From Nanobdellota archaeon (lineage in GTDB: Archaea > Nanobdellota > Nanobdellia > Pacearchaeales > GW2011-AR1), in assembly GCA_049324275.1 (NCBI GenBank), contig JBMOLG010000010.1:147977-211976 (forward strand): a stretch of DNA of 64,000 bases, written 5' to 3'. Shown one piece after another: positions 52,795 through 56,489 of this stretch (positions within the stretch are counted from its first letter, which is position 1; the number at the start of each line of letters is the position of its first letter). Under the pieces are notes generated by a model that did not search any database, was not told the origin of the DNA, and was given only the letters and a program-made list of their open reading frames with translations. A program made the position numbers and the translations under genes.

Positions 52795-54207
52795 ATGAAA
52801 TTGCAATATGAAGAATTAAAATTAGGAGAAAAGGCAAAAGAAGCTTTTTTGGCAGGCAGAAGTTCCGATTATATCAAAAAAGAATGCCCGGCATATCTTA
52901 ATACTAATCCTGTTTTTGCAGGTTTGAATGTAACTGATTTGGTCATTGCCGGCATTTTATCCGGAATGAACATCTTGCTGGTCGGAAACACTGGTTGCGG
53001 AAAGTCTCAGCTTGCACGGGACATACATAATTATTATTTTAATGGGAATAAATTTGAAGGCGGTGAAAGTTTGACTATTGAAGGGCATCCTGAATTAGAC
53101 ATTTACAGGGATGTACTTACATATGTTGATTTAAAAGAAGGAAAACGAGTTTTAAATAATGCACATCAATCTTTGTTTTGGAATATTGAAGAATTTAACC
53201 GATGCCCCCCTATTTCACAAAATCAATGGTTTGCGGTTGGAAACGGCAGATTAATCCATCAAGGGCAATCTGTTAATATTGGAAGAAATGGTTATGTAAC
53301 ATCGATAGCTACTGCAAATTATGGAAACGGAGAATTTAGAGGAACTTTTGAGGTTGATAAAGCGCTTGAAAATAGATTTGGATTAATCCTTGATTTGGAT
53401 CATTCGCAATTTCAGCCAACAAAAGAAGACAGAATCATCATGGATATGCTAAGATCTGCTTATTCTGGAATTCATGAGGCTCCAAAGCATAATTTATCTG
53501 ATAAAATAATGCATGCAAATGAAAAAATTTCAGAAATGACATTGGATATTGGATTAGAAGCGTTAGCAGTATTAAATTATTTGAAATTTGGATTAGAAAA
53601 CTGCCCCGGAAAAGATGAAAATGAAATGCCTCATTCAAAAGGTAAATCTTGGCCTATAACTTGCCAGGACTGCCCGAGAAATAGTAATAATGATTTCCTT
53701 TGTTCTTTAATAAATGCTCCTGTCCAGAGAACATTGCAATCTACGGTAAGATATGCGTCTGCATTATTTTATCTTGCAAAATTGAAAAATGAAGATTTAG
53801 AAGTGAATGCTGTTGACTTAATGTTCAAATCTTTTGAATTGGTTTCTACATATCAGAATGTTCTTAATCCTGCTATTCTGAAATCAGAATATCTTGATCA
53901 GCCACAGGAGATGATGAAAAAAGTTTGTGAAAGATTAAAAACAGATTTTAAAACAAATGAAAATTTTATCATGACTTCATTGGATGAAGCTTCAAAAGGG
54001 AATAAATGTATTGATTATTTTGAATTCACAGATGAGAAAGGAGAGAAAATGTTTTCTTTGGGCTATAGTAAATTAGATGGAAAAATTAGAAATCGGGTAA
54101 CGCCATTGAATCCTTTTACAAATGCAGGTCCTATTGGACTTGAATGGGTCCTAAATTTTATTGATACTGAAATAAAAATCGGAAATTTAAGGAAAAATGC
54201 TAAATAG
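52795..54207 (+). CDS. Divergent MoxR/AAA_5-like AAA+ ATPase with a C-terminal extension and a 4-Cys cluster
   Basis: Walker A 'LLVGNTGCGKSQLARDI', Walker B region 'LFWNIEEFNRCPPISQNQ', and 'SIATANYGNGEFRGTFEVDKALENRF'. The extension contains 'ENCPG...ITCQDCPRNSNNDFLCS'. Confidence 0.75.
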   Translation: MKLQYEELKLGEKAKEAFLAGRSSDYIKKECPAYLNTNPVFAGLNVTDLVIAGILSGMNILLVGNTGCGKSQLARDIHNYYFNGNKFEGGESLTIEGHPELDIYRDVLTYVDLKEGKRVLNNAHQSLFWNIEEFNRCPPISQNQWFAVGNGRLIHQGQSVNIGRNGYVTSIATANYGNGEFRGTFEVDKALENRFGLILDLDHSQFQPTKEDRIIMDMLRSAYSGIHEAPKHNLSDKIMHANEKISEMTLDIGLEALAVLNYLKFGLENCPGKDENEMPHSKGKSWPITCQDCPRNSNNDFLCSLINAPVQRTLQSTVRYASALFYLAKLKNEDLEVNAVDLMFKSFELVSTYQNVLNPAILKSEYLDQPQEMMKKVCERLKTDFKTNENFIMTSLDEASKGNKCIDYFEFTDEKGEKMFSLGYSKLDGKIRNRVTPLNPFTNAGPIGLEWVLNFIDTEIKIGNLRKNAK

Positions 54208-54673
54208 GCGGAAAGACTTGGGGAATAAACCTGGCTGGTCAAGGATTGGAAATCATTCTGATGAATTGAGGATTACTCCAAAAGAACCTAATGAGACTCC
54301 AATAATCAAGGGGCCGGTAATTGTTGAAAAATATGAATCAAAAAAACCAACTCTTGCGCTTGCATATTTAGTTAATACTGCAGTTCTTGTTCCAACCAGA
54401 AAAGAATATGAAGAATTAATGAGGGTCTATGAATGCGCGGGTTATTCATGGATTAATGGCAAATTGCCTACTCAAAGAGATGTTTGGCCAGAATATAAAG
54501 AAAAAACTTTGATACACCATGGTATTCTCCATGAATTAACTTATGAATGCCTGAAGAATCCTCCTCAATATGGCTGTATACTTTCATTAAATAAATTTTA
54601 TCAATCTTTGAATGTCAGCTCCCAAAAACTTTCTGATATTCATAATTGGTTTGAAAAAAATCAAACAAAATAA
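54197..54673 (+). CDS. A-type small protein 1 (shared N-terminal peptide; paralogue of 55394-55825)
   Basis: '...RKDLGNKPGWSRIGNHSDEL' then 'EYEELMRVYECAGYSWINGKLPTQ' and the C-terminus 'IHNWFEKNQTK'. The start overlaps the ATPase stop by 11 nt. Confidence 0.55.
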   Translation: MLNRRKDLGNKPGWSRIGNHSDELRITPKEPNETPIIKGPVIVEKYESKKPTLALAYLVNTAVLVPTRKEYEELMRVYECAGYSWINGKLPTQRDVWPEYKEKTLIHHGILHELTYECLKNPPQYGCILSLNKFYQSLNVSSQKLSDIHNWFEKNQTK

Positions 54674-54724
54674 AATGAATATACAAAGTTTAGGAGATTC
54701 AAAAGAACAAAACTGGAACAGAAT
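54647..54724 (+). repeat. 78-nt junction repeat, copy 1 (A-gene 3' end / B-gene 5' end)
   Basis: Aligns without gaps to 55799-55876. By my own count, 73 of 78 positions are identical and the first 57 nt differ at one base. Confidence 0.9.
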
Positions 54725-55397
54725 TGAAGATTTTTCCGACGAGTTAAATAAAAGACTGAAATTAAATAGAACACAAGAAACTAGAACAGAAGAATCAATC
54801 CCAAAAAATCCACAAGAACTTGAAGGATTCATCTATATTCCTTCAATTAATTTATATGTCGCAAAAGAAAGAAGCTTAAATGGAAAGAATTGGAATGAGG
54901 CACATGAAGAACTTCAAAAACAAGGAAACCGAATGCTGATAATTCCTGAATTCTGGAAATTTATAGATTATCTTAAGAATGAATATCCTGACAGAGCTGA
55001 AGCACAAAAGATTTTAGAAGATATTTTCAAAGTTGGAAATTGGAGAGCCGAATGGCTCGATGCACACTTTGAAAAAAAAGGCAAAGACTTGTATGTAAAT
55101 TATTATCATGAATTTAAAAATGGAAAACTAATTCCAAAATGTTCTGAAAAACTTGAAAGTTGTTTAATGGAAGATTGTTATGCAGATTTAAATTCAATAA
55201 ATAATCAAGGATTATTAACTCAGAAATCTTCTCAAAATTATATTCTGGGACAAAACAGCTATTTTTATCATCCTAGAAACAACAAAGTCGCGAGGTTCGA
55301 TGCGGACTCTGACTGGGCTGATCTCGGTTGCTATGGGGATCGTTCTGTCTCCGATGCTGTTCTTGGGGTACGCGCTGTAAGAGAGGGATTAAGATGA
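54675..55397 (+). CDS. B-type protein 1 (shared N-terminal peptide; lectin-fold/DUF1566-like body)
   Basis: I prefer the start at 54675 ('MNIQSLGDSKEQNWNRIEDFSDEL'). The body has 'GKNWNEAHEELQKQGNRMLIIPEFW' and the C-terminus 'LGVRAVREGLR'. Confidence 0.55.
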   Translation: MNIQSLGDSKEQNWNRIEDFSDELNKRLKLNRTQETRTEESIPKNPQELEGFIYIPSINLYVAKERSLNGKNWNEAHEELQKQGNRMLIIPEFWKFIDYLKNEYPDRAEAQKILEDIFKVGNWRAEWLDAHFEKKGKDLYVNYYHEFKNGKLIPKCSEKLESCLMEDCYADLNSINNQGLLTQKSSQNYILGQNSYFYHPRNNKVARFDADSDWADLGCYGDRSVSDAVLGVRAVREGLR

Positions 55398-55825
55398 CTT
55401 CTATGTTGGGGGATTCAAACAGAAATTGGAATAAGATTAAAGATTTAACAGACAGGGTAACTAAGGAATTGATCAGAAAACCCAAAAAAAATGAATATGA
55501 AAACCCAAAACCCGAAATAAATTTACAATCTACAAAGACTGTCATTGATATTCAGAATGAAGAAGAATTTAATACATTGATGAGGATTTATGAATTTGCA
55601 GGATGGACTTGGGCCAGCGGAACTTTGCCTACTGAATTTTCTTGGACAGGACAATATATTTGCGGCAACAACAAAAAATTAACCTATATTGCAAAAAGAG
55701 ATTTTGATCTTGTAAAAATTAATCTTAGGATTATTTCAATTGAAGAATTTTATCAGCTCCAAGGCATCAAGCCTGAATTAATTACACAAATAAATGACTG
55801 GTTTGCAAAAAATCAAACAAAATAA
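55394..55825 (+). CDS. A-type small protein 2 (shared N-terminal peptide)
   Basis: ATGA overlap with the preceding stop. 'MTSMLGDSNRNWNKIKDLTDRV', 'EEFNTLMRIYEFAGWTWASGTLPTE' and the C-terminus 'INDWFAKNQTK'. Confidence 0.55.
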   Translation: MTSMLGDSNRNWNKIKDLTDRVTKELIRKPKKNEYENPKPEINLQSTKTVIDIQNEEEFNTLMRIYEFAGWTWASGTLPTEFSWTGQYICGNNKKLTYIAKRDFDLVKINLRIISIEEFYQLQGIKPELITQINDWFAKNQTK

Positions 55826-55876
55826 AATGAATATACAAAGTTTAGGAGATTCAAACAGAAAAAACTGGAACAGAAT
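55799..55876 (+). repeat. 78-nt junction repeat, copy 2
   Basis: See copy 1 (54647-54724). Confidence 0.9.
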
Positions 55877-56489
55877 CAGAGATTTATCTCGGGAACTTAA
55901 TAATCAGTCTAAGGAAACGAGAAAAATCCCTTTAGATGGAAAACCTATTAACGAAATAACTAACAAAGTAATGTCAATTGATGAAAGAGATTTTTGGAGA
56001 TTTATGAGTTTTGATTGTAATCTTTATGTTGATTTATTAAAAAAACCTTTGGAGAATGGAGAAACAAGAAAGCAAGATGAATGGGCTGAATACTCTGATA
56101 ATGCGAGAAAAAAGGGAGAATTTTATACAGGCTCTATGCAATTTTATCATTTGCTTTTTAGAATTATTATAGCATCCAACAATCAGGAAGCATTAAAATT
56201 AGTAAAAGAACAAATGCAAAATTCACTTTTAACTCTGACAAGGATAAACTATAATTATCCCGGGCTTGACAGAGTTATACATAATTATAGCATGCCGGAT
56301 GAGAATAGTATTAAAGTAAATTTGGTTGGACCAGAGGAATGGATAAAAAACAGCGCGGATAGAGATTATCTTAAAGCATTGTTAAATACGACTAATGTGC
56401 AAGAAATAGATTATACCTATCATAAAATGAATCTATTAGGTGCTTGGATTTCTAGGGGAAAAAGAAAATGTTCTTGGAAATTCTTATAA
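55827..56489 (+). CDS. B-type protein 2 (shared N-terminal peptide; divergent body)
   Basis: I prefer the start at 55827 ('MNIQSLGDSNRKNWNRIRDLSREL'). The body shows only loose similarity to B-type 1 ('NLYVDLL', 'EWAEYSDNARKKGEF'). Confidence 0.55.
   Translation: MNIQSLGDSNRKNWNRIRDLSRELNNQSKETRKIPLDGKPINEITNKVMSIDERDFWRFMSFDCNLYVDLLKKPLENGETRKQDEWAEYSDNARKKGEFYTGSMQFYHLLFRIIIASNNQEALKLVKEQMQNSLLTLTRINYNYPGLDRVIHNYSMPDENSIKVNLVGPEEWIKNSADRDYLKALLNTTNVQEIDYTYHKMNLLGAWISRGKRKCSWKFL

What the first reader, a model, noticed from the sequence alone, without database searches (positions are those of the whole stretch)
52795..56489. AAA+ (MoxR/AAA_5-like) ATPase followed by two tandem A-B gene pairs whose four products share one N-terminal peptide
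Seen in sequence:
- The 470-aa ATPase has the Walker A motif 'GNTGCGKS', the Walker B region 'FWNIEEFNRCPP' and 'ALENRF'. It also has a ~200-aa C-terminal extension holding a 4-Cys cluster ('NCPG...TCQDC...LCS').
- Four tightly packed ORFs follow: an 11-nt overlap, a 1-nt gap, an ATGA overlap, then a 1-nt gap.
- All four begin with the same ~20-aa peptide: P1 'DLGNKPGWSRIGNHSDEL', P2 'SLGDSKEQNWNRIEDFSDEL', P3 'MLGDSNR-NWNKIKDLTDRV', P4 'SLGDSNRKNWNRIRDLSREL'. Each is followed by a K/E/T/P-rich linker and then a different body.
- P1 and P3 are paralogues ('Y/FExAGxxWxxGxLPT[QE]' and a C-terminal 'NxWFxKNQTK').
- P2 and P4 are larger and have diverged strongly. P2 has hints of a DUF1566/FGE-type lectin fold.
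- The layout is therefore ATPase-[A-B]-[A-B].

Inference: a common leader peptide on otherwise different proteins next to an AAA+ motor looks like a shared docking, recognition or cargo tag rather than simple paralogy. MoxR-type ATPases normally pair with VWA proteins. This operon has none, although a canonical MoxR-DUF58-VWA set lies convergently next door. I do not recognise this arrangement as a described system.
Basis: partly seen in the sequence, partly recalled or inferred. Interest (0 to 1): 0.8.

Follow-up and report, generated by a model that had tools for sequence, protein, structure and literature searches.

The report
ATPase-matched tag on hypervariable archaeal proteins
Four genes behind a MoxR-like ATPase in a tiny (DPANN) archaeon begin with the same short peptide, and comparison with about 50 related loci suggests this peptide is a docking tag matched to the ATPase, carried mainly by the hypervariable lectin-fold proteins that diversity-generating retroelements mutate.

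Summary
The gene layout, overlaps, ATPase motifs and shared N-terminal peptide are all as described.

The locus is not an orphan system. It is a reduced copy of a cassette found only in DPANN archaea. The full cassette reads: small RHH gene, MoxR-like AAA+ ATPase, an array of leader-bearing genes, a ~570-aa HExxH/MIDAS-motif protein, then the template repeat and reverse transcriptase of a diversity-generating retroelement (DGR).

- **P2 and P4** are C-type-lectin-fold DGR target proteins. P4 is frameshifted.
- **P1 and P3** belong to a separate, undescribed small-domain family with 361 representatives.
- **Missing here:** the 64-kb window has no RT, template repeat, 570-aa partner or RHH gene.

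The leader is conserved at the amino-acid level in about 45 loci. It always sits at the N-terminus of genes next to the ATPase, and AlphaFold models it as a flexible appendage. Three unrelated leader classes pair with three ATPase subfamilies, while near-identical lectin bodies carry different leaders.

What the ATPase does with its clients (sensor hub, chaperone or export) is inferred, not shown. I rate it a new variant of the bacterial MoxR–vWA/DGR systems.

The parts
52795..54207 (+). MoxR-like AAA+ ATPase (470 aa) with a conserved Cys4 cluster and a C-terminal extension. It is the invariant partner of the leader-bearing genes.
   Evidence: Pfam AAA_5 scores 21.2 bits against a cut-off of 22. 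There are 58 homologue clusters; every one that a source names is a DPANN archaeon. The AF2 model has pLDDT 90.6. The best PDB match is 2r44 (E 1e-10, TM 0.62), followed by MCMs. 2r44 is itself a close homologue (E 1e-91) of the window's canonical MoxR.
54197..54673 (+). P1: a diverged leader, a linker, and an 'A-domain' (about residues 60-158).
   Evidence: Paralogue of P3. The A-domain family has 361 representatives at E<=1e-3. No Pfam or PDB match. No detectable relation to the lectin family.
54675..55397 (+). P2: leader (aa 1-33), a low-confidence linker (aa 34-50) and a C-type-lectin-fold body of the DGR target type.
   Evidence: AF2 pLDDT is 88 overall and above 95 for the body. Residues 1-13 score below 50. 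All of the top 50 PDB matches are C-type lectin domains. The body is 61% identical to a proven DGR target in L062.
55281..55365 (+). Variable-region-like segment at the 3' end of P2.
   Evidence: It matches template repeats from other genomes: L001 TR over 37 nt at 89% (3 of 4 mismatches at TR adenines), and L062 TR over 65 nt at 75% (9 of 16 at adenines). Adenine content is 15% here against 40% gene-wide. No cognate TR exists in the window.
55394..55825 (+). P3: leader, linker and A-domain.
55827..56592 (+). P4: leader plus a lectin-type body of the '282-aa' target subfamily. The frame is broken at the G4A5 run (56455-56463). The annotated ORF ends at 56489, and the lectin C-terminus continues in the +1 frame to 56592.
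   Evidence: tblastn with the L001 282-aa target gives E 8.5e-27, but only up to residue 227.
54642..54751 (+). First copy of a 110-nt direct repeat (second copy at 55794-55903, 84% identical). It covers the A-gene 3' end and the B-gene leader and is the trace of the tandem A-B duplication.
52648..52794 (+). 147-nt AT-rich upstream spacer, presumably the promoter region. Relatives carry a 47-56-aa RHH-like gene here; the window has none.
   Evidence: The small ORF is present in 17 of 35 loci that have upstream sequence.

Best explanation
What it is. The region is a reduced copy of a cassette specific to DPANN archaea. In this cassette one MoxR-like AAA+ ATPase serves an array of client proteins. 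Each client starts with a ~25-35-residue peptide (core [IL]-[IL]-G-[DN]-x3-7-[FYI]-[DN]-x-[DN]-L-A-x-x-[LVI]-N-x-E), followed by a charged, Pro-rich linker.

The clients. Most are C-type-lectin-fold variable proteins whose C-terminal ~80 nt are rewritten by a diversity-generating retroelement. P2 and P4 are of this kind. A minority, including P1 and P3, carry a different ~100-aa 'A-domain'.

How it works (inferred). The peptide is a flexible docking tag read by the cognate ATPase, or by the ATPase together with its ~570-aa HExxH/MIDAS-motif partner where one is present. Many interchangeable ligand-binding modules can therefore plug into one ATP-driven hub. All components lack signal peptides and membrane segments, so I place the system in the cytoplasm. 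I think it most likely works like the bacterial MoxR-vWA ternary systems that use DGR-diversified lectin domains as sensors. That last step is analogy only.

This window's copy. It lacks the RHH gene, the 570-aa partner, the template repeat and the reverse transcriptase, and it has one frameshifted client. It is therefore either served in trans by a DGR elsewhere in the genome, or it is decaying.
For: Shown:
1. The leader is a family feature. The leader HMM hits 106 of 5,738 ORFs in the window plus 61 loci. Every hit is on the ATPase strand and at the N-terminus of its ORF, and no ATPase or 570-aa ORF is hit.
2. In 29 of 37 non-redundant loci with sequence after the ATPase, a leader gene starts at the ATPase stop. 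Five of the other eight show variant [IL][IL]G-type starts by eye. Two more (L059, L060) show only partial resemblance.
3. Selection acts on the peptide, not the DNA. The conserved Gly uses all 4 codons and Leu25 uses 6.
4. The leader is modular. It sits on at least four body types.
5. Only 2 of 120 homologues of the P2 body carry it. The others carry other recognisable N-terminal peptide classes or none.
6. The leader class follows the ATPase type, not the body.
   - P2's body is 61% identical to an L062 target whose N-terminus is unrelated. The L062 ATPase is only 29% identical to the window's.
   - A second class-2 locus, L069, has the same 393-aa ATPase (65% identical to L062's).
   - Class 4 goes with a third ATPase type, 23% identical to the window's.
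7. AF2 models the leader as a low-confidence appendage ahead of a body with pLDDT above 95.
8. The clients are DGR targets. Mismatches between template and variable repeats fall at template adenines in 9 independent loci. P2's 3' end matches foreign template repeats and is adenine-depleted.
9. The ATPase is MoxR-like by structure.
10. No hydrophobic segments occur in any component.

Precedent: bacterial MoxR-vWA systems with DGR-diversified lectin domains, including loci with a MoxR-like ATPase directly upstream of a target that has an unannotated N-terminal extension (PMC7159879, PMC10907252).
Against: - Nothing here tests binding. The docking role is inferred from co-variation and architecture.
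- Leader similarity tracks ATPase similarity (Mantel rho 0.42, 0 of 2,000 permutations reach it). Shared descent of whole cassettes would give the same result.
- The class-to-ATPase matching rests on many class-1 loci but only two class-2 loci and one class-4 locus.
- Two other N-terminal classes (3 and 5) were found without any nearby ATPase.
- The window copy has no RT or TR in 64 kb. It has no 570-aa partner or RHH gene, and P4 is frameshifted.
- The vWA assignment of the 570-aa protein rests only on an invariant DxSxS...T...SDG pattern. Pfam, a PDB profile search and hhalign do not call it.
- The sensor-hub function is pure analogy.
- The key survey of DPANN DGRs (Paul et al. 2017, PMC5436926) could not be read. 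It may already mention the ATPase.
Confidence: 0.6

Rival explanations
1. Export or display route. The leader is a non-canonical secretion or assembly signal. The ATPase, with the HExxH/MIDAS partner, hands the variable lectins to the cell surface, where they act as adhesins for attaching to host cells. This is the usual suggestion for DPANN DGR targets.
For: The literature proposes host-interaction roles for DPANN variable proteins (PMC5006420, PMC10907252). It also notes that they lack recognisable membrane or export domains (PMC8144416), which leaves room for an unrecognised signal. A flexible N-terminal tag followed by a linker is what a translocating motor would need. An HExxH protein could remove a leader.
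Against: To my knowledge, MoxR-type ATPases are not known as secretion motors. No membrane component is conserved in the cassette. The leader is hydrophilic and highly charged.
Confidence: 0.17
2. Dedicated quality control. DGR mutagenesis keeps producing variants that may misfold. The leader lets a private chaperone (the ATPase) and protease (the HExxH protein) refold or destroy them.
For: From general knowledge, MoxR proteins are chaperone-like remodellers. An invariant HExxH is present in the partner. The tag is N-terminal, disordered and followed by a linker, as degrons are.
Against: A-domain clients carry the same tags but have no variable region. Many simple DGRs in the same archaea work without the ATPase. 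The window cassette keeps the ATPase but has no protease partner.
Confidence: 0.1
3. No function. The shared peptide is only a relic of tandem duplication and gene conversion within each array.
For: Leaders are much more alike within a locus (mean 75%) than between loci (39%). DNA-level repeats span the leaders.
Against: The motif persists across about 45 loci with ATPases as low as 35-40% identical, and its conserved residues use many synonymous codons. It is joined to unrelated bodies, and bodies move between leader classes.
Confidence: 0.05
4. The ATPase is an accessory factor of retrohoming, acting on the RT-RNA-cDNA complex. Its link to the leader would then be incidental.
For: After 2r44, the best structural matches are MCM helicases. 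An RT lies next to the cassette in 6 of 13 loci that have at least 5 kb of downstream sequence.
Against: Cassettes with many clients exist without a nearby RT: the window, L024 with 18 clients, and L017. The MCM matches reflect the shared AAA+ clade. Leader class co-varies with ATPase type.
Confidence: 0.06

Closest known systems
Bacterial MoxR-vWA(-VMAP) ternary systems with DGR-diversified FGS/C-type-lectin domains (Kaur et al. 2020, PMC7159879; Dore et al. 2024, PMC10907252)
   Same: A MoxR-like AAA+ ATPase is encoded with DGR-mutated lectin-fold proteins. A protein with a MIDAS-type motif and a peptidase-type motif lies in the same operon. A small DNA-binding protein is sometimes present. 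Clade 5A loci have the ATPase directly upstream of a target that has an unannotated N-terminal extension.
   Different: Here the lectin domain is not fused to the vWA component. Instead, up to 18 small separate clients each carry a short tag. No VMAP, Trypco, TIR, caspase or trypsin domains are detected. [quoted passage not shown] The matching of tag class to ATPase subfamily is not described there.
Multi-target DGRs of Nanoarchaeota and other DPANN (Paul et al. 2015, PMC4372165; AvpA structure, Handa et al. 2016, PMC5006420)
   Same: The same group of organisms, several target genes per element, and a C-type-lectin fold carrying the variable region.
   Different: AvpA is a different lectin subfamily whose variable region lies internally. 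Neither paper mentions an ATPase or a shared N-terminal peptide.
Effector-associated / Death-like adaptor domains of prokaryotic conflict systems (PMC7159879, PMC8195603)
   Same: The logic is the same: a short N-terminal module shared by otherwise different proteins of one locus couples them to a common NTPase.
   Different: Those adaptors are folded domains present on both partners (homotypic). Here the peptide is ~30 residues, is predicted to be flexible, and is never found on the ATPase or the 570-aa protein.
Classical MoxR-VWA chaperone pairs (CbbQ-CbbO, RavA-ViaA, NorQ-NorD; general knowledge)
   Same: A MoxR-clade ATPase with a partner whose MIDAS site would bind the client.
   Different: Those systems serve one defined enzyme client. 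This one serves a family of variable binding proteins marked by a tag. In this window the partner is missing.

Membership tests
DGR target (variable) protein | C-terminal variable region within a C-type-lectin fold | tested here: met
   The P2 AF2 body has pLDDT above 95. All of the top 50 PDB matches are C-type lectin domains (prob up to 0.99, E 3e-3). Viral-library matches include phage tail fibres and FGE-like or TvpA-annotated proteins. P4 has the same C-terminus after frame repair.
DGR target (variable) protein | Cognate template repeat whose mismatches to the variable region fall at template adenines | tested here: not met
   No second copy of P2's 3' end exists in the 64-kb window. The feature is met in relatives, with near-exclusive adenine mismatches in 9 loci. 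P2's 3' end matches foreign TRs and is adenine-depleted. The rest of the 219,664-bp contig could not be searched.
DGR target (variable) protein | DGR-type reverse transcriptase in the element | tested here: not met
   tblastn with the L001 RT finds nothing in the window (best E 3.0). An RT (Pfam RVT_1, 2.9e-22) lies next to the cassette in L001, L003, L009, L022, L028, L041, L061, L062, L064 and L069.
MoxR-family AAA+ ATPase | AAA+ core with Walker A, Walker B and the L-x-[DN]-R-F arginine motif | tested here: met
   The motifs are read directly from the sequence. Conservation across 25 homologues is shown.
MoxR-family AAA+ ATPase | Profile match to MoxR/AAA_3/AAA_5 models above the curated threshold | tested here: inconclusive
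   AAA_5 scores 21.2 bits against a cut-off of 22, and bpMoxR gives E 0.12. Some homologues carry precomputed PF07728 hits. The class-2 ATPase scores AAA_5 at 6.9e-11. A PDB sequence-profile search finds nothing.
MoxR-family AAA+ ATPase | Closest structure is a MoxR protein | tested here: met
   Foldseek's top hit is 2r44 (E 1e-10, TM 0.62). 2r44 matches the window's canonical MoxR at E 1e-91.
MoxR-family AAA+ ATPase | Adjacent VWA-domain partner | tested here: not met
   None is present in the window operon. Relatives have a ~570-aa protein with invariant HExxH and DxSxS...T...SDG, but Pfam, a PDB profile and hhalign do not recognise a VWA domain.
VMAP-type MoxR-vWA ternary conflict system | A VMAP protein or known effector or adaptor domains (trypsin, caspase, TIR, Trypco, EAD) | tested here: not met
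   P1-P4 have no significant Pfam, NCBIfam or PADLOC match. The ATPase has only short P-loop-level matches. The partner proteins of relatives have no Pfam hits.
Homotypic adaptor (EAD / Death-like) coupling | The same module is present on the NTPase and on its partners | tested here: not met
   All 106 leader hits are on client ORFs. None falls on an ATPase or 570-aa ORF.

The most novel reading that the evidence does not exclude
DPANN archaea may use an 'address-tag' code. At least three, and possibly six or more, unrelated classes of short N-terminal peptides would route two families of diversified binding modules to cognate subfamilies of MoxR-like ATPases. The two families are the DGR-mutated C-type lectins and the undescribed A-domain. 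This would form a plug-in, antibody-like sensor array on an ATP-driven hub. It would be an adaptive-type recognition system in organisms with ~1-Mb genomes.
Probability: 0.3. Interest if true: 0.85.

Novelty: new variant of a known kind. Interest (0 to 1): 0.62.

Why it matters
DGR variable proteins are very abundant in DPANN archaea, yet their function and location are openly unknown. Roux et al. 2021 note that they lack any recognisable transmembrane or other conserved domain (PMC8144416). Dore et al. [quoted passage not shown]

The data here tie a large share of these proteins to a dedicated MoxR-like ATPase through a short, class-specific N-terminal tag. That gives two testable things:
- A concrete interaction to test: tag peptide against ATPase, cognate versus non-cognate.
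- A simple sequence rule for sorting thousands of unannotated proteins into systems.

If the tag does dock clients onto the ATPase, the cassette is a natural modular scaffold for displaying or sensing with hypervariable binders.

For this particular window the result is more modest. It holds a partial, possibly decaying copy.

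Tried and rejected
- Pfam, NCBIfam, PADLOC and PHROGs scans of the five proteins gave only a sub-threshold AAA_5 match.
- PDB sequence searches gave nothing useful. These covered the ATPase, P2 and an L001 target as single sequences, and profiles of the ATPase, P2 family, A-domain and 570-aa protein.
- The idea that the A-domain is a truncated lectin domain, prompted by its 'G..LPT' motif, was rejected. hhalign against the P2 family gives probability 0.1%.
- The VWA identity of the 570-aa partner could not be confirmed by Pfam on whole proteins or isolated C-terminal domains, or by hhalign against the window's own VWA protein. 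It could not be modelled because it is not encoded in the window.
- The window has no RT, TR, 570-aa partner or RHH gene.
- No relative of the ATPase was found on viral contigs, so a viral origin is unlikely.
- The word-based search for P1 relatives found only P1 itself. The exhaustive search was needed to find the family.
- The invariant Asp of the window's four leaders as a MIDAS ligand was considered and dropped. That position is D in only 54% of leaders, and it is N, T or Q elsewhere.
- Paul et al. 2017 (PMC5436926) is not held in the library.

Full report
**1. The observation**

The ORF list confirms the layout. The ATPase lies at 52795-54207. P1 (54197-54673) overlaps it by 11 nt. P2 (54675-55397) follows a 1-nt gap. 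P3 (55394-55825) starts in an ATGA overlap. P4 (55827-56489) follows a 1-nt gap.

The quoted ATPase motifs are present. Across 25 homologues the Walker A Gly and Lys, E133 and R136 of the EEFNR Walker B region, and the Arg of ALENRF are invariant. Four cysteines (C270, C290, C293, C303) are present in at least 90% of sequences.

The four downstream products align over their first ~30 residues and then diverge. P1 and P3 are paralogues (30% identity, E 1e-16). A 110-nt DNA repeat at 84% identity and period 1152 marks the tandem A-B duplication.

To test chance without circularity, I built a leader HMM from other loci only. Among 647 six-frame window ORFs it ranks P3, P4 and P2 first to third (E 1.6e-4, 1.8e-4 and 0.019), each at its N-terminus. 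P1's leader is too diverged to score.

**2. The organism and the ATPase**

The window has ~30% GC. The ATPase has 58 homologue clusters. Every cluster that a source names is from Nanoarchaeota, Pacearchaeota or Woesearchaeota, that is, DPANN archaea. No relative occurs on viral contigs.

Sequence profiles barely see the family. Pfam AAA_5 scores 21.2 bits against a 22-bit cut-off, and a PDB profile search finds nothing.

An AlphaFold model built on 25 homologues is confident (pLDDT 90.6). Its best PDB match is 2r44 (E 1e-10, TM 0.62), followed by MCM subunits of the same AAA+ clade. 2r44 is a close homologue (E 1e-91) of the canonical MoxR gene that lies convergently in this window. The ATPase is therefore MoxR-like by structure, but a very diverged branch.

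**3. The conserved cassette**

Neighbourhoods of four homologues, 16 genome loci and 37 metagenome loci show one recurring operon. In order it contains:
- a 47-56-aa gene, RHH-like by its sequence pattern (my reading);
- the ATPase;
- one to several 250-330-aa genes;
- a ~570-600-aa gene;
- more 250-330-aa genes;
- and often a reverse transcriptase gene.

In L001, the locus whose ATPase is 64% identical to the window's, five such genes all begin MTILNQIGDRGDWKRIHYDKDLIARIN. Each ends in an ~80-nt segment that recurs just upstream of the RT gene. The mismatches fall almost only at adenines of the RT-proximal copy. This is the signature of a diversity-generating retroelement (DGR).

The same adenine-specific pattern holds in nine independent loci (for example 15/15, 12/12 and 17/17 mismatches at adenines).

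**4. What the window's four proteins are**

P2 matches the L001 255-aa target (tblastn E 7e-30). P4 matches the L001 282-aa target (E 8.5e-27) but only up to residue 227. P1 and P3 match a 173-aa gene in L005.

*P2.* The AlphaFold model built on 53 homologues has a body with pLDDT above 95. All of its top 50 PDB matches are C-type lectin domains. Its viral-library matches include phage tail fibres and FGE-like or TvpA-annotated proteins.

*P4.* The missing C-terminus lies in the +1 frame. Deleting one base in the G4A5 run at 56455-56463 restores a 254-aa protein ending ...RVYLNCSGLDVPYSSLGIRE, the lectin variable-region type.

*Variable-region footprint.* P2's 3' end (55281-55346) matches template repeats from other genomes at the nucleotide level, and most mismatches fall at template adenines. 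The segment 55281-55365 has 15% A against 40% gene-wide.

*What is missing.* The window holds no RT, no template repeat, no 570-aa gene and no RHH gene. This copy is either diversified in trans or decaying.

**5. The leader is a family-wide, modular tag**

*Distribution.* An iterated leader HMM hits 106 of 5,738 ORFs in all loci. Every hit is on the ATPase strand and at the ORF N-terminus. None is on an ATPase or 570-aa ORF. In the 64-kb window only P1-P4 are hit. Among 37 non-redundant loci with sequence after the ATPase, 29 have a leader gene starting at the ATPase stop. Five of the other eight show variant [IL][IL]G-type starts by eye, and two more (L059, L060) show only partial resemblance.

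*Level of selection.* The conserved positions (Gly, Leu25, Ala26, Asn30) are encoded by many synonymous codons. Selection therefore acts on the peptide.

*Structure and bodies.* AlphaFold gives the first 13 residues pLDDT below 50, then a low-confidence helix (residues 20-33) and linker, ahead of the rigid body. The leader occurs on at least four unrelated bodies: two or three lectin subfamilies, a '326-aa' type and the A-domain.

**6. The tag follows the ATPase, not the body**

Of 120 homologues of the P2 body, only two carry this leader. The rest carry other recognisable N-terminal peptides or none.

*Class 2 (K-I-I-I-P-x-T-x-F-G...ERVL).* Context look-ups show it in two independent loci, L062 and L069. 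Both have a parallel cassette built around a 393-aa ATPase that is 27-29% identical to the window's, and the two ATPases are 65% identical to each other.

*Class 4 (INPNLIKLAELTHNP).* It sits on eight targets behind a third ATPase type, 23% identical to the window's.

*The key comparison.* P2's body is 61% identical to an L062 target, while the two N-termini are unrelated.

*The A-domain family.* It has 361 representatives at E<=1e-3 and uses the same tag classes: 13 of 149 carry class 1, and others carry class 2, class 4 or a 'DFYTKFLEEHSF' type. It can form its own tandem arrays (L068).

*Limits.* Classes 3 and 5 were found without a nearby ATPase, so not every N-terminal class is ATPase-linked. 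Leader similarity correlates with ATPase similarity (Mantel rho 0.42, 0 of 2,000 permutations reach it). Shared descent could explain that correlation, and I give it little weight.

**7. The partner protein**

The ~570-aa protein has an invariant HExxH near its N-terminus. In its C-terminal third it has an invariant DxSxS...T...SDG pattern, with spacing typical of a MIDAS site. Pfam, a PDB profile search and hhalign do not recognise a VWA domain. It could not be modelled here. I call it 'HExxH/MIDAS-motif protein' and treat the VWA identity as unproven. It is present in 8 of 13 loci that have at least 5 kb of downstream sequence, so the ATPase, not this protein, is the constant partner of the leader.

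**8. Mechanism**

*Shown.* The clients are DGR targets. The tag is conserved, N-terminal, flexible, modular and matched to the ATPase type. All components lack hydrophobic segments.

*Inferred.* The tag docks clients onto the ATPase. For the downstream function I favour a cytoplasmic sensor-hub like the bacterial MoxR-vWA ternary systems, whose lectin sensors are DGR-diversified (PMC7159879, PMC10907252). Rivals are export or display of adhesins, private quality control of hypermutated proteins, a retrohoming role for the ATPase, and a functionless duplication relic. The last is largely excluded by the comparative data.

**9. Comparison with what is known, and novelty**

DGRs with several lectin targets in Nanoarchaeota are known (PMC4372165, PMC5006420). 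MoxR-vWA systems coupled to DGRs are known in bacteria. These include loci with a MoxR-like ATPase directly upstream of a target that has an unannotated N-terminal extension (PMC10907252).

[quoted passage not shown] Roux et al. note that the archaeal targets have no recognisable domains besides the lectin (PMC8144416).

I found no description of the following in the papers I could read:
- the shared tag;
- its matching to ATPase subfamilies;
- the A-domain family.

Paul et al. 2017 could not be accessed. I therefore class this as a new variant of a known kind.

**10. Verdict**

The 'unknown system' turns out to be a trimmed DGR-target cassette. The window copy itself is partial. The wider pattern it led to is the interesting part.

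Noticed in passing
window 56440-56592: P4 is frameshifted. Removing one base from the G4A5 run at 56455-56463 restores a 254-aa protein with a lectin-type variable C-terminus. This could be a pseudogene, an assembly error or a slippery site.
   Followed up: partly
window 56598-59404 (- strand): A canonical MoxR (AAA_3, 6.8e-59), DUF58 and VWA/BatA operon lies convergent to the cassette. It is followed by a 1389-aa protein (59404-63573) that looks like a surface protein: it has an N-terminal hydrophobic stretch and many N-x-S/T sequons.
   Followed up: partly
window 50438-52647: Two 368-aa genes with no Pfam match lie upstream. The second (51541-52647) has repeated Cys-rich 'C..W.C' modules and an N-terminal hydrophobic stretch.
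   Followed up: no
L024 1019-17743: One Woesearchaeota locus carries 18 leader-bearing genes on both sides of a single ATPase. No RT or 570-aa gene lies within 17.7 kb.
   Followed up: no
L068 21-3244: A 3.2-kb contig consists of at least seven tandem A-domain genes. The six whose starts lie on the contig all begin with a class-1-like leader (LNQIIGNRKTESKIDTNLWKKLNEKY). The A-domain therefore also forms diversified arrays.
   Followed up: partly
P0060-P0179 (homologues of the P2 body): At least six recurring N-terminal peptide classes sit on one lectin body family. One member (P0125) has a precomputed DnaJ-domain (PF00226) hit and a J-domain-like N-terminus. Classes 3 and 5 were found without an adjacent ATPase.
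   Followed up: partly
L001 15681-15761, L062 10991-11071 and window 55281-55346: Template and variable repeats are conserved at the nucleotide level between different genomes (37 nt at 89% between the L001 TR and the window P2). Both this stretch and the cassette DNA around it are far more G+C-rich than the rest of these ~30% GC genomes.
   Followed up: partly
L003 13937-15018, L009 12266-13422, L041 2466-3505, L061 1510-2457: The RT gene is split into two ORFs in several loci. This could be decay of the retroelement or assembly errors.
   Followed up: no
L007 7861-8004 and L064 7251-7421: In some cassettes the small RHH-like gene is replaced or joined by a small gene that looks AbrB/SpoVT-like by sequence pattern only. 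In L064 it sits inside the target array.
   Followed up: no
L003 16363-17413; L001 3233-5728: A phage-integrase-family gene lies near one cassette. A separate 831-aa VWA protein lies upstream of another.
   Followed up: no
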